Source: Clostridia bacterium (GTDB lineage Bacteria > Bacillota > Clostridia > UMGS1883). Taken from it: a stretch of DNA of 61,188 bases. The stretch lies in assembly GCA_045660765.1 (NCBI GenBank), contig JAZREK010000067.1:1-61188 (forward strand), in the 5' to 3' direction. The position numbers and the translations under genes were made by a program. The notes under the pieces are model-generated. The model had not been told where the DNA came from. It saw nothing but the letters and a program-made list of their open reading frames with translations, and did not search any database. This document shows, piece by piece, positions 970-59,734 of this stretch. How positions within the stretch are numbered: position 1 is the stretch's first letter; each line of letters begins with the position of its first letter.

Positions 970-1012
970 GGTTTCCCCTCCAAAACATTATTTATCAAAG
1001 TCGTGTACACTA

Positions 1013-1064
1013 ATTATAACAACATATAGTTGCGTTGTCAATACCAAATAACAATATATTGGTG
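1013..1064 (-). promoter_or_regulatory. sigma-A promoter of nrdD overlapped by tandem NrdR boxes
   Basis: Minus strand TTGACA (1036-1041), 17 bp, TATAAT (1013-1018). NrdR-like 16-mers at ~1018-1033 (GCAACTATATGTTGTT) and ~1049-1064 (CACCAATATATTGTTA) are 31 bp apart, the typical NrdR box spacing. Confidence 0.8.
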
Positions 1065-1225
1065 TTTTTTAGTTTTTTGTAAAAAATGCCGGTTTTTGCC
1101 TATATATAGCGGTTTTTGAAGGTTTTTATCCCCTCTTGTAACATAAACTTAACACAAAAAAGCACAATATCTTGTGTCTAAATATAGTACAAGACACTTT
1201 CTGTACATATTTTTTGAAAAATTTA

Positions 1226-1254
1226 TTTACTAATCGCACATTATATAGTATAAT
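1226..1254 (+). promoter_or_regulatory. Putative sigma-A promoter of hpf
   Basis: TTTACT, 17 bp, TATAAT, about 90 bp upstream of the hpf ATG. Confidence 0.55.
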
Positions 1255-1342
1255 AAAGGTAAGAAGAGTGAATCTCTTCAAAACAAAGCCGACAAAGTCG
1301 GTATATATTGTACCTCTTTTCGGCTATTAAGGAGGATCATAT

Positions 1343-1870
1343 ATGAAGACTAACATCTATGCAAGAAAAGTTGAGCTCGGTAATGAAAAGAAGGAAATGC
1401 TCATCAAGAAAATCGACAAGTTGGGCAAGTTCTTCAATGACGAGGCCTCCGCTGACATTGTGGTAAGCGAGCAGAAGGACAAGATGATTGTGGAAGTTAC
1501 AATCCGTACGGCAGATATGATTTACCGCGCGGAAGAGCGCAACGAGGAAGTTTATAATGCTGCAGACGATATTGTAGATTCAATCACACGTCAGATAAGA
1601 AAGAATAAGACACGTCTTGCAAAGCGTCTTCGCGAAGGTGTATCCAAGGAGATTGATTTCTTTTTAGACGTACCCGAACAAGATGATGACGAAATCAAGA
1701 TTGTTAAAACCAAAACTCATCAGGTCAAGCCCATGAGCGCGGAAGAAGCAGTTTTGCAGATGAATCTTCTAGGACATTCTTTCTACATTTTCAAAAATGC
1801 ACAAACAAACACAACAGATATAGTTTATCGTCGCAAGGACGGAAACTACGGACTTATTGAGACGAACTGA
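1343..1870 (+). CDS. hpf: Ribosome hibernation promoting factor (long HPF/RaiA)
   Basis: RQIRKNKTRL and C-terminal KPMSAEEAVLQMNLLGHSFYIF...VYRRKDGNYGLIE; RBS AAGGAGG. Confidence 0.95.
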   Translation: MKTNIYARKVELGNEKKEMLIKKIDKLGKFFNDEASADIVVSEQKDKMIVEVTIRTADMIYRAEERNEEVYNAADDIVDSITRQIRKNKTRLAKRLREGVSKEIDFFLDVPEQDDDEIKIVKTKTHQVKPMSAEEAVLQMNLLGHSFYIFKNAQTNTTDIVYRRKDGNYGLIETN

Positions 1871-2433
1871 TGATAAATATAAAGGAAGCAATTATTGTCG
1901 AGGGAAAATACGACAAGATGCGACTTGAACGCATCTGCTCCTCGCCCATTTTTACGACAGAGGGCTTTCGTGTTTTTAACGACAAGGAAAAGCGCGCATT
2001 TCTTAAAAGACTTGCAAAAGAGCGCGGAATACTGATTCTTACCGATTCGGACAGGGCCGGTTTTATGATTCGCAATCATATAAAGTCATTTATTGATAAT
2101 GGCGAAATAAAGCAAGCGTACATCCCTGAAATATTTGGTAAGGAAAAGAGAAAGAGCACCTCTTCAAAAGAGGGCAAGCTTGGTGTTGAAGGTATATCTG
2201 AAGAAGTACTTTCCGAGATACTTTCAAAATACGCAAGCAATGAAATGCGTACAGATAAAATAACGAAAACAGATTTATACGATGCAGGCTTGTACGGCGG
2301 CGCACAAAGTGCCGCCGCACGTGCATCTTTGTGCAAAAGCCTGGATATTCCCACAGGTATTTCCACAAATGCGCTTGTGGATGCACTGAACGCACTTATA
2401 ACAAAGGAAGAATTTTTATGCATGACAACGTAA
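1870..2433 (+). CDS. rnmV: Ribonuclease M5-like (Toprim + DUF4093)
   Basis: IIVEGKYD, ILTDSDRAG and LGVEG motifs. Confidence 0.85.
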   Translation: MINIKEAIIVEGKYDKMRLERICSSPIFTTEGFRVFNDKEKRAFLKRLAKERGILILTDSDRAGFMIRNHIKSFIDNGEIKQAYIPEIFGKEKRKSTSSKEGKLGVEGISEEVLSEILSKYASNEMRTDKITKTDLYDAGLYGGAQSAAARASLCKSLDIPTGISTNALVDALNALITKEEFLCMTT

Positions 2434-26224: not shown

Positions 26225-26542
26225 ATAACAAAAACGGGTATCGTAATAACCGATAGCCATTGGAGCATTATCCGAACCTGCCCAAAATGGCTGAAAATAG
26301 GCTTTTTCTTCGTTATCGGTCTTAAAATACACAAAGTATTTCTTCGCCCTGTTGCCTTGAAAAATCTCAATTTTGAGCCATTTGGGGTTTAAAGAATTTT
26401 TTGCTAACTATTTTTCGGTGTAACAAGGCAAAAACGAAGCCCATACTGTCGTATGGGCTTCGTTTTTAACACAGTAGCAACGAAAAAGCGGACGCAAAAA
26501 ACAGAGTTCGGATAATACTCCAATGGCTACCCGTTTTGTTAT
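26225..26542. repeat. Branched palindromic intergenic element, copy A (MITE/REPIN-like or structured RNA)
   Basis: Inverted repeat TAGCCATTGGAGCATTATCCGAAC (26254-26277) / GTTCGGATAATACTCCAATGGCTA (26506-26529) encloses two long hairpins; same architecture as 47469-47747. Confidence 0.75.
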
Positions 26543-26548
26543 GCAGTT

Positions 26549-27391
26549 TTACCACATCCTTATTACTGTTCTTGATTCCTCAAGAATACTTGCTTCCCAA
26601 TCTAGGAAATCGGAAGGACAAGGTTCGGTGACATTATAAATTTCTTTTCTTTCGTCAATCCACCTTATCAATTCGCCGTTATGGAAATAGAAGCGGTTTT
26701 CTTTTTCAGCATTAGAAACAAATGCAAAATATAGTTCTTCCTCGTCAAAATAGTAAATTCTAGTGTAGTTAAGCCTATCATCCGCGGGAACTTCTATTTT
26801 CTTTAATTCGCCTTTGTAGAAATAATAAGACGCATTTGAAGAACCGATGTATCCAATCTCAAGTTTCAACTGCTGTGTCTCGTTATACATGGCTCTTATC
26901 TTCTTCACAGCCGCCTCGACATCTCCCGTAGTCAGAATCCTGTCATCTTCTGCAGTTACAGGGAACTCTTCTTTAGGCTGAGGAATAATCTCTTCCTCAA
27001 TTTCGGGGGCAGGTTTTTCATCAGGCTTGGCAGAATCAGTTTTTTCCGCAGTTTCTTTTTCTTCTACTGTAGCTTCTTTTTCTTCTACTGCAGTTTCTTT
27101 TTCTTCTACTGACGTAGTCGTATCCTTATCCTCGTCACCTGACATTTGTCCCAGAACAAAACAAGCAATACACAAAAGTCCGATAAATGCACCTACTAAA
27201 ACTGCCAGAGCTATGTTTTTACCCGTTGAAGAGTCACTTTTTTTTATTACTCGGTGAGGTTCATATAGTTCCGTTCGTGTTTCTTCCGGCATTATAAATT
27301 CATCAGTCTGAGTTAAGGCACCGCCGCAGTACTCACAAATCGCACTATTAGAGCTTTGTGCCTCTTTTCCACAATTAACACATTTTTTCAT
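26549..27391 (-). CDS. Zinc-ribbon membrane protein with acidic repeat linker
   Basis: CVNCG...CEYCG, a single TM, three VEEKE(T/A)-type repeats and an extracellular C-terminal domain. Confidence 0.75.
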   Translation of the reverse strand: MKKCVNCGKEAQSSNSAICEYCGGALTQTDEFIMPEETRTELYEPHRVIKKSDSSTGKNIALAVLVGAFIGLLCIACFVLGQMSGDEDKDTTTSVEEKETAVEEKEATVEEKETAEKTDSAKPDEKPAPEIEEEIIPQPKEEFPVTAEDDRILTTGDVEAAVKKIRAMYNETQQLKLEIGYIGSSNASYYFYKGELKKIEVPADDRLNYTRIYYFDEEELYFAFVSNAEKENRFYFHNGELIRWIDERKEIYNVTEPCPSDFLDWEASILEESRTVIRMW

Positions 27392-45061: not shown

Positions 45062-47335
45062 ATGATTGCAAAACAGAAAATCAGCGCAATAGCAAAAGAT
45101 ATAAACATTCCCGGCAAGGAAATCGTTAAAATGCTTGCAGACGTAGCAGGTATTACAAAAAGCACTGCTGCTTCTCTTGATGTAGAGGAAATGAGTCTTG
45201 TAATGGAATATTACACACAGAAATTCGATGACGGCACAAGCATCGAAGAATATGTTGAATCACAGATGCAGAAGGTTCAGGCTGAAAAAGAAGCTGAAGC
45301 AGAAAAAGCTCCCAAGGTTACTGAAATTCCCGTTGAAGAAACTATCAGCGAGGATATTCCTACACAGAAAACTGTACGTTACGTTGACACACGTTCAAAC
45401 GCAGTTGACCTTGATATGCAGCTTGCAAAGGAAAAGGCAGAAGAGCTTGCTCCCGAAATAAAGGACACTGAAACTAACAAACAGCGTCTTAAGAAAAACA
45501 AAAACAAGCAGCAGCCCCAGAAGAAAAATCAGCCCAAGCAGCCTGAAATGCCCAAACCCAAGAAGGAAGAAAAGAAAGAACCCCTTCATGTTGTTATTCC
45601 CGACACAATTACTGTCGGTGACCTTGCACAGAAGCTTAAGGTTGGTGCTACTGAAATTATCAAACGCCTTATGCAGCTTGGTATTATGGCGGCTATCACA
45701 CAGGATATTGAATACGATGTAGCGGCTCTCGTTGCTGAAGATATGGGTGCGGAAGTTGAAAGAGAAATCATCGTTACTGAGGAAGATAAGCTCCTCAGCG
45801 ATTTCGAAATTCCCGATGAAGAAAAAGACCTTCTTCCCCGTCCTCCCGTTGTCTGCGTAATGGGTCACGTTGACCATGGTAAGACAAGTCTTCTTGACGC
45901 AATCCGCTCTACAAACGTTACTGCAAGCGAAGCAGGCGGTATCACACAGCATATCGGTGCTTACATGGTAAATGTAAACGGCAATCAGATTGCGTTCTTG
46001 GATACTCCCGGTCACGAAGCGTTCACTGCAATGCGTGCACGTGGTGCTCTTGTAACAGATATTGCAATCCTCGTTGTTGCGGCAGACGATGGTATCATGC
46101 CTCAGACAATCGAAGCTATCAACCACGCAAAAGCTGCTGAAGTAAGCATTATCGTTGCAATCAACAAGATTGATAAAGACGGCGCTAATCCTGACAGAGT
46201 TAAGCAGGAACTTACAGAGCACGGCCTTGTTCCCGAAGAATGGGGTGGCGATGTAATCTGTGTTGAAGTTAGTGCTAAACAGCGTATGAATATAGATTCA
46301 CTTCTTGAAATGGTACTCCTTACTGCAGAAGTTAAGGAACTTAAGGCTAACCCCAACCGCCATGCAAGAGGTACAGTTATCGAAGCTAAACTTGACAAGG
46401 GTCGCGGTCCTGTTGCAACCGTTCTTGTACAGAACGGTACTCTTCGTCAGGGCGACATCATCGTAACAGGTACAGCTGTTGGTCGTGTAAGAGCAATGGT
46501 TGATGACCATGGTAAGAAGATTAAAGAGGCACTTCCCTCAACACCTGTTGAGATTGTAGGTCTCAGTGAAACTCCCGACGGTGGCGATCCCTTCTTCGTA
46601 GTAGAAGATGAGCGTGCCGCTCGTAATGTTGTTGAAGCAAGAAAGCAGAAGATTAAAGACGAGGCTAACAAGGCTAGACAGCGCGTTAACCTTGAAGACC
46701 TCTTCAGCCAGATTCAACAGGGTGACGTTAAGGATCTTAACATCATCGTTAAGGCAGACGTTCAGGGTAGTGTTGAAGCCGTAAGACAGAGTCTTGAAAA
46801 AATTTCAAACGAAGAAGTACGCGTTCGCGTTATCCACGGTGCAGTTGGTGCTATTACTGAAAGTGACGTTACACTTGCATCTGCATCAAATGCAATTATC
46901 GTAGGTTTCAACGTTCGTCCCGACGTTGGTGGTAGAAATGCTGCTGAACTCAACAAGGTTGATATGCGTATGTACCGCGTAATTTACGAAGCTATCGAAG
47001 AAATCGAAGCTGCTATGAAGGGTATGCTTGCTCCTACATTCCGCGAAGCGGTTATTGGTCATGCGGAAATCCGTCAGACATTTAAGGTTAGCGGTGTAGG
47101 TACAATCGGTGGTTGTTACGTTACAGACGGTAAGATTCAGCGTAACTGCAGCGTAAGAATCGTTCGTGACGGTATCGTTATCCACGAAGGCGAACTTGAT
47201 TCACTTAAGCGTTTCAAGGACGACGTTAAGGAAGTTGCAAGCGGCTACGAATGTGGTATGGGCTTCGTACGTTTCAACGACATCAAAGAAGGCGACGTAG
47301 TAGAATGCTACATTATGGAAGAAGTAAAGAGATAA
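45062..47335 (+). CDS. infB: Translation initiation factor IF-2
   Basis: [25 protein letters not shown] and [11 protein letters not shown]. Confidence 0.98.
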
Positions 47336-47468
47336 GTCGAATGAGAAATTTCCTTTTGGAAACATTCTCATTCGAGAGAAGGGCTTACGCTCGCGCGGTG
47401 CTCACCGCACCAGCCCTTGCAAGGAGCCTAATGCGAGGTACACGCCCTCGTATTAGGCGATTTTTGTA

Positions 47469-47747
47469 TTAACCAAAAGCGAATAGTCCGAACCTGCCTT
47501 AAACGGTGGAATTTCGGTATCTTTCGGCTTGTCATCCTTGCAAGGCGCAAAGCCTTGCTTCCTCTTTCGCACCAAAATCTACTCAAAATTTCATCCGTTT
47601 AAGGTCAATGGAATTTTCAGAGAGCGGATTTTTGATTGCGGAAGGCAAAAACGCAGGTAATCCTGACGGATTACCGAGTATTTTAACACATCGAAAGCGG
47701 AAATCCGCCTCTGAAAATCAGAGTTCGGATTATCCACTTTTGGTTAA
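47469..47747. repeat. Branched palindromic intergenic element, copy B
   Basis: Inverted repeat TTAACCAAAAGCGAATAGTCCGAAC / GTTCGGATTATCCACTTTTGGTTAA encloses two long hairpins; junction and loop motifs are shared with copy A. Confidence 0.75.
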
Positions 47748-47814
47748 GGGGAAAATCCCCTTAATAATCCCCTTGTCTTTTGAGGACAATATATTATGAA
47801 AGAAGGGAATTATC

Positions 47815-48159
47815 ATGTCTTTTAAAAGAACTGACAGAATTTCAGAGGAAATAAAAAAGGAGCTTTCAAGTGTCATTCGTGACCTTAAAGACCCCCGTAT
47901 TCCCATGATGACAAGTGTTGTGAATGTAAATGTCACAAACGATTTAAGCTATGCGAAGGCATATATCAGCGTTATGGGAACTGACGAAGAAAAGAAGGCT
48001 GCTATAAAGGCACTTTCTCAGGCGGCAGGATATGTTCGCCGTGAAATAGGCGGACGAATCAAACTTCGTTGCGTGCCTGAATTCACTTTTGAGCTTGATA
48101 CTTCAATTGAGTATGGCGCACACATCAACAAGCTTCTTAACGATATAAGTAAAAACTGA
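47815..48159 (+). CDS. rbfA: Ribosome-binding factor A
   Basis: KDPRI, DLSYAKAYIS and PEFTFELD. Confidence 0.96.
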   Translation: MSFKRTDRISEEIKKELSSVIRDLKDPRIPMMTSVVNVNVTNDLSYAKAYISVMGTDEEKKAAIKALSQAAGYVRREIGGRIKLRCVPEFTFELDTSIEYGAHINKLLNDISKN

Positions 48160-48165
48160 AAGTAA

Positions 48166-49125
48166 GTGACAAATATGAAAGAAGTAATCGCTCAATTAAA
48201 AAACAGTAAAAGTGTTGCTATTTTCGTTCACGAAAATCCTGACTGGGATTGTATAGGTAGCGGATTTGCACTTCGCAATGCACTCCGCACAAGTGGTATC
48301 AAGGCAGACCTTTTCACGGAGAAGGAGCTTTCAAGGCATCTTTCTTTTCTTGAAACAGATGTTATCACTTTCAGCGAAGATGCAACGGCTCCCGATTATG
48401 ATTGTTACTGTGCCCTCGACGTAGGTAACAGCGACAGAATCGGCAGTTGGGGTAAGTTTTTTGCAGAAAAGGACAATACAGTTTGCGTTGACCACCATCA
48501 TCCTAACGGGGAATTTGCAAAGATAAGTCATATCGAGCCTTCCCGCAGTTCTACGGGTGAGCTTGTGTATGAGCTTCTTACAGAAGGCGGTTTTGAAATA
48601 ACAAAAGAAATTGCCGAGTATCTTTACTGTGCAATGTCAGCCGATACAGGTTCATTTCAGTATGCGTCTGTAAATCGCAGAACTTACGAAATACTGATTG
48701 ATTTGTACGAAACAGGAATTAACACGACATACCTTTGCAGTATGCTTTACGAAAGAAATTCCATCACACAGCTTCGTCTTCAGGCAGAGCTTATTAACTC
48801 AATCAAGTTATACAAGGACGGAAAAATTGCAACTGCAAAGATAACAAACGAAATTATGGAAAAACATGGTGCTACACGTAATGATACCGAGGCACTTGCG
48901 CAAATTCCCAGAAGTATAGACGGTGTTATGATAAGCGCATTTTTAAAGGAACTTCCAGAGGGAGATATCCGCGTAAGTCTGCGCAGTCTTGGAGATTATA
49001 ACATTGAACCTGTTGCAAGGATGTTCGGTGGCGGCGGCCACAAAAAAGCGGCAGGTTGCACATTCAAAAACTCTTCGATTGATGATGCTGAAAAGGCACT
49101 CGTTGAAGAACTGGAGAAATTATGA
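48166..49125 (+). CDS. nrnA: Bifunctional oligoribonuclease/PAP phosphatase (DHH family)
   Basis: HENPDWD, VDHH, DTGSF, VSLRS and GGGHKKAAG. Confidence 0.9.
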   Translation: MTNMKEVIAQLKNSKSVAIFVHENPDWDCIGSGFALRNALRTSGIKADLFTEKELSRHLSFLETDVITFSEDATAPDYDCYCALDVGNSDRIGSWGKFFAEKDNTVCVDHHHPNGEFAKISHIEPSRSSTGELVYELLTEGGFEITKEIAEYLYCAMSADTGSFQYASVNRRTYEILIDLYETGINTTYLCSMLYERNSITQLRLQAELINSIKLYKDGKIATAKITNEIMEKHGATRNDTEALAQIPRSIDGVMISAFLKELPEGDIRVSLRSLGDYNIEPVARMFGGGGHKKAAGCTFKNSSIDDAEKALVEELEKL

Positions 49126-58031: not shown

Positions 58032-58047
58032 CAGTGCATCTCCTCAG

Positions 58048-58083
58048 CCGAAATCCCGCCGTTTAAGACAGGTTCGGATTATT
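58048..58083 (-). repeat. Truncated remnant of the palindromic element family
   Basis: Reverse complement AATAATCCGAACCTGTCTTAAACGGCGGGATTTCGG matches 47482-47517 at 32/36 positions. Confidence 0.7.
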
Positions 58084-58084
58084 G

Positions 58085-59734
58085 TCAGTCAGCAAATACC
58101 ATTACTTGCTTCTTAAAGCCATCCATTTTTGTTTGTGCTTCCTCCCTAGTTTTTCCACATACGCCAAAGTAGAACTTAATCTTCGGCTCTGTGCCTGAAG
58201 GACGAACTGCAAACCAGCTTCCGTCAGAAAGGAAATATTTAAGCACATCACTCTTGGGAAGGCCATCAATACCTTCGCTGTAATCAAGCATTTTTTCAAT
58301 TTCAAGCGGAAGGGACTCTTCCCTGAATTTTTTCATGATTGATTTGATTTTTTCTACACCCTCAATACCTGTAAGGGTTTTTGTTTCAAGTGATTCAAGG
58401 AAGTATCCGTACTTTTCGTAAAGCTCGATAAGACCATCGTAGAGCGTCTTGCCCTGTGATTTGAGGTCAGCAGCAAGCTCGGCAACAAGCATTGATGCAA
58501 CAACAGCATCCTTGTCACGCGCATAGCTTCCCTTTAAGTAGCCATAGCTTTCTTCAAAGCCGAAGAGGTACTTGTCAAACTTACCCTCTGCCTCAAATTC
58601 TTTAATCTTTTCGCCGATAAATTTGAAGCCGGTAAGAACATCCATCGTTTCCATACCGAAACTGTCGGTTATTGCACGAACCATCTCGGTAGTAACGATT
58701 GTTTTAATAACCACACCCTCTTTGGGAAGTGTGCCGTCTGCCTTTTTGCTTCTTAAAATAAAATCACAAAGGAGCGCACCTATCTGATTTCCGTTAAGCA
58801 CCGCGAATGTACCATCAGATTTCTTTACAACAACACCAATTCTGTCGCTGTCAGGGTCTGTACCGAAAATGATGTCGGCATTCTGCGCTTTTGCATACTC
58901 GATAGCAAGAGTAAACGCTTCTGCATTTTCGGGGTTGGGACTTTTAACTGTCGGGAAGTTTCCGTCAGGCGCTTCCTGTTCGGGAACTACGAAAACATTT
59001 TTAACACCGATTTCATCAAGCACGCGACGAACAAGCTTGTTTCCGCTACCGTGAAGAGGGGTATATACAACCTTGAAATCCTCGGGGATTTTAATTCCGA
59101 GTGACTGTTTTTTAATAGCTTCAATATATGCCTTGTCTACATCTTCGCTGATTGATATGTAGTCCGGAGTTTCAGTAATTTTTATACCTTCGAAAATATC
59201 TATCTTCTGGATGTATTCAACAATCATATCTGCAACTTCAGGAGAAATCTGGCTGCCATCTTCTCCGTAAACCTTATACCCGTTATACTCCTTGGGATTG
59301 TGGCTTGCAGTAATAACTATACCGCGAGTACATCCAAGATGGCGAAGTGCAAACGAAAGTTCGGGAGTGGGACGAAGCGAATCAAAAAGATATGTCTTGA
59401 TACCGTTTGCACAAAGAACCTTCGCACATTCGAGAGCAAAAGAATCCGAATTATTTCTGGAGTCAAATGCAATTACTACACCCTTTTCCGAGGCTTCCTT
59501 TCCCTGCTCGCTGATTTCAAGAGCGAGTCCCTGTGTAACACGTCTTACAACGTAATTATTCATACGATTGGTACCTGCACCCATAATTCCGCGAAGGCCT
59601 GCTGTACCGAATTCAAGTTCACGATAAAATCTGTCTTCGATTTCTTTTTCGTCAAGCACGCGAAGTTCTTCTTTTACCGCTTCCTCCACTTTGTCTGATG
59701 TAAGCCACTTTTCGTATTCTGCTTTATAACTCAT
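58085..59734 (-). CDS. pgm: Phosphoglucomutase/phosphomannomutase
   Basis: FGTAGLRG, TASHNP, DPDSDR, GFEESYG and RPSGTEPK. Confidence 0.93.
   Translation of the reverse strand: MSYKAEYEKWLTSDKVEEAVKEELRVLDEKEIEDRFYRELEFGTAGLRGIMGAGTNRMNNYVVRRVTQGLALEISEQGKEASEKGVVIAFDSRNNSDSFALECAKVLCANGIKTYLFDSLRPTPELSFALRHLGCTRGIVITASHNPKEYNGYKVYGEDGSQISPEVADMIVEYIQKIDIFEGIKITETPDYISISEDVDKAYIEAIKKQSLGIKIPEDFKVVYTPLHGSGNKLVRRVLDEIGVKNVFVVPEQEAPDGNFPTVKSPNPENAEAFTLAIEYAKAQNADIIFGTDPDSDRIGVVVKKSDGTFAVLNGNQIGALLCDFILRSKKADGTLPKEGVVIKTIVTTEMVRAITDSFGMETMDVLTGFKFIGEKIKEFEAEGKFDKYLFGFEESYGYLKGSYARDKDAVVASMLVAELAADLKSQGKTLYDGLIELYEKYGYFLESLETKTLTGIEGVEKIKSIMKKFREESLPLEIEKMLDYSEGIDGLPKSDVLKYFLSDGSWFAVRPSGTEPKIKFYFGVCGKTREEAQTKMDGFKKQVMVFAD

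What the first reader, a model, noticed from the sequence alone, without database searches (positions are those of the whole stretch)
26225..26542. Dispersed family of branched palindromic elements with conserved junctions and compensatory stems (copy A)
Seen: copies A (here) and B (47469-47747) share one architecture. Outer stem ...TCCGAAC-CTG, arm 1 (CCCAAAATGG..CCATTTGGG in A; CCTTAAACGG..CCGTTTAAGG in B), a short linker ending GAA, arm 2 (TTTTTTGC..GCAAAAAA in A; TTTTCAGA..TCTGAAAA in B), then CAG-A-GTTCGGA. The arm-1 tip is CTT-N-6bp-RCAAA-6bp-CTTC in both (stems AAATAC/GTATTT vs CAAGGC/GCCTTG). Arm 2 has AAGGCAAAAACGMAG-stem-C(TGWC)G-stem...TTTTAACACA in both. Stem sequences differ but pairing is kept, which indicates selection on a single-stranded fold rather than recent duplication. 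No transposase lies in the window and I saw no clear target-site duplication. Inference: a non-autonomous element mobilised in trans (for example by an HUH/RAYT- or IS200-type nuclease), or an undescribed structured ncRNA family. This is my best candidate for an undescribed system here.
Basis: partly seen in the sequence, partly recalled or inferred. Interest (0 to 1): 0.75.

Follow-up and report, generated by a model that had tools for sequence, protein, structure and literature searches.

The report
Y-shaped mobile repeat of gut Clostridia
The two look-alike structures are copies of a small non-coding jumping DNA element that litters the genomes of uncultured gut Clostridia, keeps a conserved Y-shaped fold, and has no identifiable enzyme to move it.

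Summary
Copies A and B share about 57% of their bases but the same 276-277-nt three-way fold. They belong to a dispersed family. I count 37 loci in this 1.68-Mb assembly, plus short derivatives. The covariance model hits 71 of 87 genomes of the order. All named hits are gut MAGs labelled Acutalibacteraceae, Oscillospiraceae or Clostridia.

It is a mobile, non-autonomous DNA element of the MITE kind. It has long terminal inverted repeats and TA on both flanks. One relative has a clean empty site. Copy A sits in the stem of a host terminator, and that stem re-forms when the element and one TA are removed.

Pairing is strongly conserved: 66 of 84 pairs show compensatory changes. Both strands fold equally well, so nothing points to an RNA of one polarity. 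There is no Rfam match.

The RAYT/IS200 idea is not supported. No cognate transposase was found among IS630, IS4/5, IS110, IS607 and IS3. B-type copies lie mostly just upstream of ribosome-binding sites, in one orientation; this is unexplained.

Earlier notes of this scan found the same family in two other genomes.

The parts
26254..26529 (+). Copy A (my subfamily A): 272-nt element 26256-26527 plus the flanking TA on each side
   Evidence: Covariance model R1 matches positions 1-277, 234.8 bits. Ends were read.
26254..26280 (+). Copy A, 5' half of the outer stem (terminal inverted repeat); pairs with 26502-26529
   Evidence: I1: 30-nt arms, 90% complementary. Helix 1.
26281..26387 (+). Copy A, arm 1 (base CCCAAAATGG/CCATTTGGG; tip hairpin AAATAC-ACAAA-GTATTT)
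   Evidence: I2; helices 2-4.
26396..26501 (+). Copy A, arm 2. Its tip is a perfect 17-bp hairpin (26430-26467) with an A-run before it and a T-run after it, so it looks like a bidirectional terminator
   Evidence: I3; I4 is 17 nt, 100% complementary; helices 5-7; score 10 on both strands.
26502..26529 (+). Copy A, 3' half of the outer stem
26225..26253 (.). Host DNA: 5' part of a terminator-like hairpin split by the insertion of copy A (the other part is 26530-26542)
   Evidence: With the element and one TA removed, the flanks fold into an 18-bp hairpin (-22.3 kcal/mol on +, -23.4 on -). The orthologous site in relative G015 has a plain hairpin and no element.
26530..26542 (.). Host DNA: 3' part of the split terminator-like hairpin
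47470..47746 (+). Copy B (my subfamily B): 273-nt element 47472-47744 plus flanking TA. Outer stem 47470-47496 / 47719-47746; arm 1 47497-47604; linker 47605-47612; arm 2 47613-47718
   Evidence: R1 matches 1-277, 323.5 bits. Fold. Column mapping from alignment A3. The site is empty in relatives G014, G015 and G016.
58047..58087 (-). Degenerate B-type remnant (outer-stem/arm-1 piece), directly upstream of a GAGGAG-ATG gene start
   Evidence: nhmmer, E 2.1e-5, profile positions 17-57. Sequence.

Best explanation
Copies A and B belong to a large family of non-autonomous mobile DNA elements of the MITE kind. The elements are 273-277 nt long. Each element has a roughly 27-bp outer stem made by its terminal inverted repeats. 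That stem closes a three-way junction carrying two long hairpin arms.

Shown: the element inserts at a TA dinucleotide and ends up with TA on both sides. It was mobile during the diversification of this genus, because orthologous sites are filled in one species and empty in another. It decays by internal deletion to pieces of 60-250 nt. It is spread through an order of uncultured gut Clostridia. Its pairing is kept by compensatory changes while the sequence, including the termini, drifts.

Inferred: it is moved in trans by a transposase that cuts at the ends and joins them to a TA. An IS630/Tc1-mariner-like DDE enzyme is the textbook candidate (my odds about 0.3). The fold persists either because the element must fold back to be recognised, or because insertions whose two ends snap together leave the host's terminators and stop-codon/ribosome-binding-site junctions working.

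In this window, copy A split the terminator hairpin of the gene at 26549-27391 (- strand). Copy B entered the infB-rbfA spacer.
For: Copy number: blastn and nhmmer find 50 non-overlapping hits in the 1.68-Mb assembly. Model R1 gives 60 matches, which I count as 37 distinct loci; only 150 of 907 candidates were scored.

Subfamilies: the 11 B copies are 92.4% identical (median), the 3 A copies 88.0% and the 3 C copies 83.0%.

Ends: all 11 full-length B copies read TA-ACC...GGT-TA. Among 47 full-length copies from other MAGs, TA is at the 5' end in 37 and at the 3' end in 36, and 45 of 47 are 273-277 nt long.

Empty site: G015 has ...CTT-TA-[element]-TA-ATATT where G000 has ...CTC-TA-ATATC.

Copy A: removing the element and one TA rebuilds an 18-bp hairpin. 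G015 has a hairpin there and no element.

Copy B: the site is empty in G014, G015 and G016.

Deletion derivative: at one orthologous site G015 has a full-length copy and G000 a 60-nt piece that starts at an internal repeat of the terminal 9-mer.

Distribution: 71 of 87 genomes of the order and 14 of 18 genera. Named hits are gut MAGs.

Covariation: with 27 sequences, 93.9% of cells are paired and 46 of 84 pairs have double changes; 0 of 500 shuffles reach this. With 65 distinct sequences the figures are 93.8% and 66 of 84, again 0 of 500. Sliding the partners by 1-3 columns drops pairing to 35-50%.

Known kind: Correia, ERIC and RUP elements are described with TIRs, TA termini, TSDs and stem-loop transcripts, and for most no transposase is known (PMC2229807, passages read).
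Against: No autonomous partner was found. DDE_3 (IS630) is absent from this assembly and present in only 2 of 87 genomes of the order. The one I inspected has unrelated ends.

In five genomes rich in copies, no two TIR matches lie 1-3 kb apart: matches that pair up are about 250 nt apart and the rest stand alone.

At least six subfamilies with unrelated terminal sequences coexist in this one genome. On the classical model that would need several cognate transposases.

Some older copies are flanked by AA/TT or CA/TG. These are palindromic, not direct, repeats, which a simple TA duplication does not predict.

The CM-fitted alignment A6 leans towards the structure. The sample was also selected on the arm-2 motif.

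The assemblies are MAGs (this one is 85.5% complete), in which insertion sequences often fail to assemble.
Confidence: 0.8

Rival explanations
1. The element is recognised by its structure. An enzyme recognises the folded shape (single-stranded DNA or a cruciform, with the conserved three-way junction) rather than the terminal sequence, and cleaves at the base of the outer stem next to TA.
For: Size is held to 273-277 nt in 45 of 47 copies. Even the terminal pairs covary freely; pairs 3-7 of the outer stem each show 2-3 Watson-Crick types. Bases around the junction and the arm bases hardly vary (the pair closing the junction and the bases of both arms). Subfamilies with unrelated termini share one genome. 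No sequence-matched IS was found.
Against: No candidate enzyme was found. The Y1/HUH genes do not track the element. Integron-like or other structure-specific recombinases were not searched. Quasi-palindrome template switching could produce compensatory changes without any selection. Part of the sequence invariance in arm 2 comes from how the sample was picked.
Confidence: 0.2
2. REPIN-like element moved by a REP-associated tyrosine transposase (RAYT) or an IS200/IS605 Y1 enzyme.
For: The genome has two Y1_Tnp genes. One is a 303-aa protein with NCBIfam REP_Tyr_transpos at 75.5 bits against a cut-off of 80. A C-type element ends 3 nt from its stop codon. Insertion 3' of TA, with the element itself ending in TA, would fit the empty site as well as a TA duplication does.
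Against: That RAYT gene is bracketed by inverted copies of a different repeat (TGCTGCACAGTTTGGGGACGGGGCA). Its core has 59 hits at up to 2 mismatches in the genome. Y1 genes are in 42 of 71 genomes with the element and 7 of 16 without. Genomes with 13-22 scored copies, such as G084, G004, G028 and G012, have no Y1 gene. Only 1 of 20 RAYT loci elsewhere has an element within 2 kb. The elements have long terminal inverted repeats, not the like-oriented subterminal hairpins of IS200/IS605.
Confidence: 0.05
3. The element works mainly at the RNA level, as a cis-acting leader or spacer element, or as an ncRNA gene family, that happens to be multicopy.
For: B-type copies lie just upstream of gene starts in one orientation. 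A start codon opening a long ORF lies within 45 nt of the 3' end in 19 of 25 copies and of the 5' end in 5 of 25. With an SD-like motif also required, the counts are 20 of 47 against 3 of 47. Ten of the 11 B-type copies (10 full-length, one truncated) with a callable upstream ORF are co-oriented with it. The fold is conserved.
Against: There is no Rfam match and no promoter-like site inside either copy. The minus strand folds at least as well in 14 of 17 copies. In the geometrically defined outer stem, G-U and A-C cells are equal at 34 each. Neighbouring genes are unrelated to each other. Sites are polymorphic between close species. Non-B subfamilies tend to the opposite orientation: 7 of 9 in strongly skewed regions. 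Orientation is confounded with replication direction, because skew and gene strand correlate at r = 0.84.
Confidence: 0.1
4. The element moves through a circular double-stranded intermediate made by a serine recombinase or transposase of the Tn4451/TnpX or IS607 kind, with TA as the crossover dinucleotide rather than a duplication. The GA-flanked clostridial transposons are recalled from memory, not from a call.
For: The joined ends would form a perfect palindrome around TA. One locus (C86:21332-21413) has a right end and a left end sharing a single TA.
Against: No true IS607 was found: 0 of 87 genomes reach the cut-off. Weak hits are roughly 500-aa serine recombinases in 50 of 87 genomes, and this genome has none. 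Abutting ends are also what a second TA insertion next to the first would give.
Confidence: 0.07

Closest known systems
Correia / NEMIS elements of Neisseria (bacterial MITEs)
   Same: Non-coding, multicopy and mostly intergenic. They have terminal inverted repeats, TA at the termini with target duplication, transcripts that fold into long stem-loops, and frequent placement just upstream of genes. No cognate transposase is known (PMC2229807, passages and Table 1; PMC10969869, passages).
   Different: The element here is 273-277 nt, against 100-200 nt. It has a conserved three-way junction with two long arms instead of a single stem-loop. No promoter-like site was found. IHF sites and RNase III cleavage were not tested. 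The host is gut Clostridia.
RUP of Streptococcus pneumoniae (IS630-Spn1-related MITE)
   Same: Firmicute host, insertion at TA, terminal inverted repeats, no coding capacity (PMC2229807).
   Different: RUP ends resemble a resident IS630. Here IS630-type genes are in 2 of 87 genomes, and the one inspected has unrelated ends. RUP is 107 bp.
ERIC/IRU of enterobacteria
   Same: TA termini, a folded transcript co-transcribed with neighbouring genes, and orientation that matters for its effect on them (PMC2229807).
   Different: ERIC is 127 bp with a 7-bp TIR. No RNA data are available here.
REP/REPIN elements with RAYT
   Same: Palindromic dispersed repeats kept as hairpins. A RAYT-like gene is present in the genome.
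   Different: REPs are short. The RAYT here has its own GGGGAC-type REP family. There is no co-occurrence or linkage with the 276-nt elements.
SPRITE (pneumococcal Rho-independent-terminator-like element)
   Same: A mobile repeat carrying a terminator-like hairpin. Copy A's arm-2 tip is a perfect hairpin between an A-run and a T-run. SPRITE is mentioned in PMC10969869.
   Different: B-type copies have only a weak T-tract on either strand. Terminator activity was not tested.

Membership tests
Bacterial MITE (Correia/ERIC/RUP type) | Terminal inverted repeats | tested here: met
   Copy A has 30-nt arms, 90% complementary. The outer stem of 27 pairs is 89.6% paired in 27 sequences and 92.4% in 65.
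Bacterial MITE (Correia/ERIC/RUP type) | Target-site duplication, shown by filled versus empty orthologous sites | tested here: met
   TA flanks all 11 B copies. Empty site in G000 C17 against the filled site in G015. The host hairpin is rebuilt after removing copy A and one TA. A few old copies have AA/TT or CA/TG flanks.
Bacterial MITE (Correia/ERIC/RUP type) | Small, non-coding, many dispersed copies | tested here: met
   37 loci by R1, plus short derivatives. Only spurious 58-62-aa ORFs overlap copy A. The ATG in the B linker is missing from A, C and most other genomes' copies (read in alignment A3). The size, 273-277 nt, is above the roughly 100-200 bp of the described families.
Bacterial MITE (Correia/ERIC/RUP type) | Cognate autonomous IS with matching ends | tested here: not met
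   None was found. This is also true of most described bacterial MITEs, and MAGs lose IS copies.
IS630/Tc1-mariner-derived MITE | TA duplication plus ends like a resident IS630-family element | tested here: inconclusive
   TA: yes. DDE_3 is in 0 of 1 (own genome) and 2 of 87 (order). The G073 IS630 ends are unrelated. ISfinder was not available.
REP/REPIN with RAYT | RAYT gene flanked by the repeat, and co-occurrence of the two across genomes | tested here: not met
   The RAYT is flanked by a different repeat. Y1 is in 42 of 71 genomes with the element and 7 of 16 without. 1 of 20 RAYT loci has an element nearby.
IS200/IS605-derived PATE | No terminal inverted repeats; subterminal hairpins at both ends; no duplication | tested here: not met
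   The ends pair with each other over about 27 bp. TA is on both sides.
Any Rfam RNA family | Score at or above the family's gathering threshold | tested here: not met
   There are no matches at the finding. The best sub-threshold match is Thr_leader, 29.8 bits against 55. Nothing better than E 1.2 for copy B.

The most novel reading that the evidence does not exclude
These elements are moved by an as yet unidentified enzyme that reads the shape of the folded element, not its terminal sequence. The shape is a roughly 276-nt three-way junction formed by single-stranded DNA or by a cruciform. That would explain four things: the fixed size, the conserved junction, the free covariation of the termini, and the coexistence of many end-sequence variants in genomes with no matching insertion sequence. 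A related bold reading is that the fold is selected because it makes the insertion 'invisible'. It would bring the upstream stop codon or terminator half and the downstream ribosome-binding site back together in the transcript.
Probability: 0.2. Interest if true: 0.8.

Novelty: new variant of a known kind. Interest (0 to 1): 0.5.

Why it matters
This repeat is one of the commonest non-coding features in a whole order of uncultured gut Clostridia, and it seems not to be named in print. Searches for Acutalibacteraceae or Oscillospiraceae together with MITE terms found no paper. A 2024 review of prokaryotic MITEs has no occurrence of 'Clostridi' or 'Firmicutes'.

It breaks MAG assemblies, because many copies sit at contig ends. 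It can be mistaken for a riboswitch or an ncRNA. It also sits inside essential operons and terminators, where it may alter expression.

Two features make it a good system for asking how MITEs without a known transposase move, and why their folds persist. One is the strict size and Y shape held by covariation across end-sequence variants. The other is the strong bias for one orientation just upstream of ribosome-binding sites.

Tried and rejected
- **RNA evidence:** no RNA holder was listed for window 46900-48300.
- **Strand-specific fold:** my first count (131 G-U against 51 A-C cells) was biased, because the inner pairs came from a plus-strand prediction. In the outer stem, where every position was counted, it is 34 against 34. 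The minus strand is the more stable one in 14 of 17 copies. Rejected.
- **Head-to-head dimer origin** (arm 1 as the reverse complement of arm 2): local alignment scores never exceed the best shuffle; z runs from -0.1 to 3.3. Rejected.
- **Orientation explained by terminator strength:** a crude hairpin-plus-T-tract score gives 10/10 for copy A and about 5/5 for most B copies, with no consistent strand difference. Not supported.
- **Conserved small ORF from the linker ATG in B:** the ATG is absent from A, C and most copies in other genomes. Rejected.
- **Stop-codon targeting:** the left TA(A/G) closes an open frame of at least 35 codons (or the whole shorter flank) in 13 of 32 copies, against 6 of 32 for the mirrored control. 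In G000 it is 4 of 10 against 2 of 10. Suggestive only.
- **Partner enzymes not found or not associated:**
  - IS630;
  - Y1/RAYT;
  - IS110 in 16 of 87 genomes;
  - DDE_Tnp_1 in 16 of 87;
  - a TIR-like match beside a DDE_Tnp_1 gene on G028:C68, which is only a mini-element;
  - IS607;
  - in G000 itself, only four IS3-family genes on small contigs, no ISL3 or IS256, and one sub-threshold TnpB-like hit.
- **Vectors:** no match in the phage or plasmid collections, and none to the arm-2 motif in viral contigs.
- **GC skew against gene direction:** the two are too correlated (r = 0.84) to separate replication from transcription as the cause of the orientation bias.

Full report

Yes. Both have the outer stem TCCGAAC-CTG ... 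CAG-A-GTTCGGA. Both have an arm 1 with a conserved tip, CTT-N-6bp-RCAAA-6bp-CTTC, on different stems. Both have a short linker ending GAA. Both have an arm 2 carrying AAGGCAAAAACGMAG, a hairpin, then TTTTAACACA.

Each stretch folds far better than dinucleotide shuffles, and it does so on either strand. Copy A gives z -12.05 on the + strand and -11.79 on the - strand. Copy B gives -8.97 and -10.78. No shuffle did as well. Rfam has nothing there at gathering scores. Sub-threshold matches are only hairpin-like noise; the best is Thr_leader at 29.8 bits against a threshold of 55.

**2. It is a large dispersed family.**

The window is contig C67 of a 1.68-Mb assembly in 113 contigs, 85.5% complete.

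- blastn and nhmmer find 50 non-overlapping hits on both strands, many at contig ends.
- I built a covariance model, R1, from 27 copies with an 84-pair structure. It gives 60 matches in the genome, which I count as 37 distinct loci. Only 150 of 907 candidates were scored.
- I sorted the copies into subfamilies under my own labels. There are 11 full-length B copies (median identity 92.4%, range 81.9-96.8), 3 A copies (88.0%) and 3 C copies (83.0%). Types D to G have unrelated outer-stem sequences but the same length and Y shape.
- A and B are 56.8% identical.
- Shorter derivatives keep one or both ends. They are roughly 60-nt hairpins and pieces of 160-250 nt.

**3. It is mobile DNA that inserts at TA.**

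- All 11 B copies read TA-ACC...GGT-TA. The base outside each TA varies and the base inside does not.
- In relative G015 a B-type copy sits at ...CTT-TA-[element]-TA-ATATT. The orthologous G000 site reads ...CTC-TA-ATATC.
- For copy A, the orthologous G015 site has a plain hairpin and no element. In the window, removing the element and one TA lets the flanks fold into an 18-bp hairpin. Its energy is -22.3 kcal/mol on the + strand and -23.4 on the strand of the flanking genes; the G015 hairpin gives -22.7. So copy A went into a TA in the 3' arm of the terminator-like hairpin after the gene at 26549-27391.
- The infB-rbfA spacer that holds copy B is short and empty in G014, G015 and G016. It has diverged too far there to read the junction base by base.
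- At another orthologous site G015 has a full-length copy and G000 only the last 60 nt. That piece begins at an internal repeat of the terminal 9-mer, which fits a deletion between direct repeats.
- Caveat: some older copies of types A, C, D and G are flanked by AA/TT or CA/TG. These are palindromic rather than direct repeats.

**4. Distribution.**

- R1 finds the family in 71 of 87 genomes of the order at E up to 1e-5. That is 14 of 18 genera and two of three families. Only 22 candidates were scored per genome, so the counts are floors.
All 80 listed loci are MAGs labelled Acutalibacteraceae, Oscillospiraceae, Ruminococcaceae, Feifaniaceae, Eubacteriales or Clostridia. They come from human, horse, sheep, goat, deer and cattle gut.
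- One copy in another family (G028) is 92% identical to copy B, while infB is 77% identical. This suggests transfer between lineages, or a binning error.
- Nothing similar turned up in the phage or plasmid collections or in viral contigs.

**5. The fold is conserved by compensatory change, with no preferred strand.**

On the MAFFT alignment of 27 copies, 93.9% of cells pair and 46 of 84 pairs show changes on both sides. None of 500 shuffles reaches these values. Sliding the partners by one to three columns drops pairing to 34-52%.

On 65 distinct copies from many MAGs, aligned by the model, 93.8% of cells pair and 66 of 84 pairs show double changes. Again none of 500 shuffles reaches this. That alignment leans towards the model, and the sample was picked on the arm-2 motif, so the invariance of that motif means little.

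The termini covary as freely as the arms. The bases around the three-way junction hardly change. Length is 273-277 nt in 45 of 47 copies.

I first thought G-U pairs favoured the plus strand, but that count was biased by how the inner pairs were chosen. In the outer stem, G-U and A-C cells are equal at 34 each. The minus strand is at least as stable in 14 of 17 copies.

The data therefore do not single out an RNA of one polarity. They fit a fold needed on either strand, a cruciform, or a mutational bias that corrects quasi-palindromes.

**6. Where the copies sit.**

B-type copies are packed between genes.

- Ten of the 11 B-type copies (10 full-length, one truncated) with a callable upstream ORF point the same way as that gene (crude ORF calls).
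- A start codon opening a long ORF lies within 45 nt of the 3' end in 19 of 25 copies (G000 plus relatives). The same holds for the 5' end in 5 of 25.
- In the independent MAG sample, an SD-like motif plus a start codon lies within 30 nt of the 3' end in 20 of 47 copies, and of the 5' end in 3 of 47.
- The left TA(A/G) doubles as the stop codon of an open frame in 13 of 32 copies, against 6 of 32 in a mirrored control.

So a typical B insertion went into the TA of a stop codon, or just ahead of the ribosome-binding site, in one orientation.

I could not explain the orientation. There is no promoter-like site in either copy. There is no consistent strand difference in terminator-likeness. There is no conserved ORF. 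Gene direction is too tightly linked to GC skew to separate transcription from replication (r = 0.84).

In strongly skewed regions, 12 of 13 B loci are co-oriented with the skew, while 7 of 9 non-B loci are opposed to it.

Copy A carries a perfect 17-bp hairpin between an A-run and a T-run. It lies at a gene end. B's equivalent hairpin has a weak T-tract, and B lies within operons.

**7. Who moves it?**

This is unknown.

- IS630-type DDE_3 genes are the textbook agents of TA duplication. They are absent from this assembly and present in 2 of 87 genomes. The one I inspected has unrelated ends.
They are in 42 of 71 genomes with the element and 7 of 16 without it. Several genomes with 13-22 scored copies have none.
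- The 303-aa RAYT-like gene of this genome is bracketed by its own GGGGAC-type REP family. Only 1 of 20 RAYT loci elsewhere has an element within 2 kb.
- IS110 and DDE_Tnp_1 are each in 16 of 87 genomes. No true IS607 was found.
- This genome shows only four IS3-family genes on small contigs.
- In five copy-rich genomes, no two end-pattern matches lie 1-3 kb apart: matches that pair up are about 250 nt apart and the rest stand alone.
- MAGs lose insertion sequences, so absence is weak evidence. Even so, six or more end-sequence variants in one genome sit badly with sequence-matched transposases.

**8. Comparison with what is known.**

The closest kin in behaviour are the TA-flanked bacterial MITEs: Correia/NEMIS, ERIC and RUP. 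They have terminal inverted repeats, TA termini, duplications and folded transcripts. They are often placed next to genes, their effects depend on orientation, and most have no known transposase (PMC2229807, passages and Table 1 read; PMC10969869, passages read).

The differences here are:

- about twice the size;
- a conserved three-way junction rather than one stem-loop;
- a strict length;
- covariation across subfamilies whose ends are unrelated.

I found no paper linking MITEs with Acutalibacteraceae or Oscillospiraceae (listings only). The 2024 review has no occurrence of 'Clostridi' or 'Firmicutes'. Supplements were not read.

Two earlier notes of this scan, on other genomes, describe the same family and reached the same MITE-like, Correia-like reading. 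I treated them as leads and tested the claims here.

**9. Verdict.**

It is a real and unusually well-conserved family of a recognisable kind, not a new class of system on present evidence. My confidence that it is a non-autonomous mobile DNA element inserting at TA is about 0.8. That the enzyme is IS630-like is about 0.3. The most novel reading still open is recognition by shape, at about 0.2.

Noticed in passing
L001 (G000:C14:2487-5822) 970-1881 (- strand), with repeats at 1003-1027 and 1937-1962; 59 further sites genome-wide: A 303-aa RAYT-like gene (Y1_Tnp plus a C-terminal HTH) is bracketed by inverted copies of a GGGGAC-type repeat. That repeat's core has 59 hits in the genome. Many are REPIN-like doublets, and one is a tandem array of 52-nt period (C100:9830-9990). 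This is a second, separate repeat system.
   Followed up: partly
window 47337-47469: A hairpin-rich stretch of about 130 nt lies between the infB stop and copy B. It includes a terminator-like hairpin at 47426-47458. Parts of it recur at 74-85% identity in three other G000 contigs and in several relatives. This is a third repeat family, and it is absent from the short infB-rbfA spacer of G014-G016.
   Followed up: partly
G028:C69:19296-19573 compared with window 47470-47746: A B-type copy in a genome of another family is 92% identical to copy B, while infB is only 77% identical. This points to horizontal spread of the element, or to a binning artefact.
   Followed up: no
G000 contigs C108, C16, C23, C20, C25, C67 (copy A) and others: Non-B subfamilies are mostly oriented against the local GC skew and gene direction (7 of 9 in strongly skewed regions). 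B-type loci go with it (12 of 13). The opposite biases are unexplained.
   Followed up: partly
G000:C96:9228-9507, C31:37761-38039, C27:23604-23884: All three full-length G-type copies sit inside longer copy-specific palindromes. Two of these (C96, C31) are followed by T-runs, so they look like host terminators split by the insertion, as with copy A.
   Followed up: partly
G000:C84:940-1300 (L037): An A-type copy lies between two tRNA genes. The left flank ends in ...CCA of a tRNA with a TTC anticodon, and the right flank starts a tRNA with a CAT anticodon. Two more family members lie on the same 4.1-kb contig.
   Followed up: no
G000:C86:21332-21413: A truncated right end and a left end abut through a single shared TA (...CTTTTGGT-TA-ACCAAAAG...). 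This is either an insertion next to an older copy or a relic of a joined-ends form.
   Followed up: no
G000 contigs C66, C68, C37, C93: Four IS3-family transposase genes lie on contigs of 2-3 kb. They are the only DDE transposases detected in this assembly among the families searched.
   Followed up: partly
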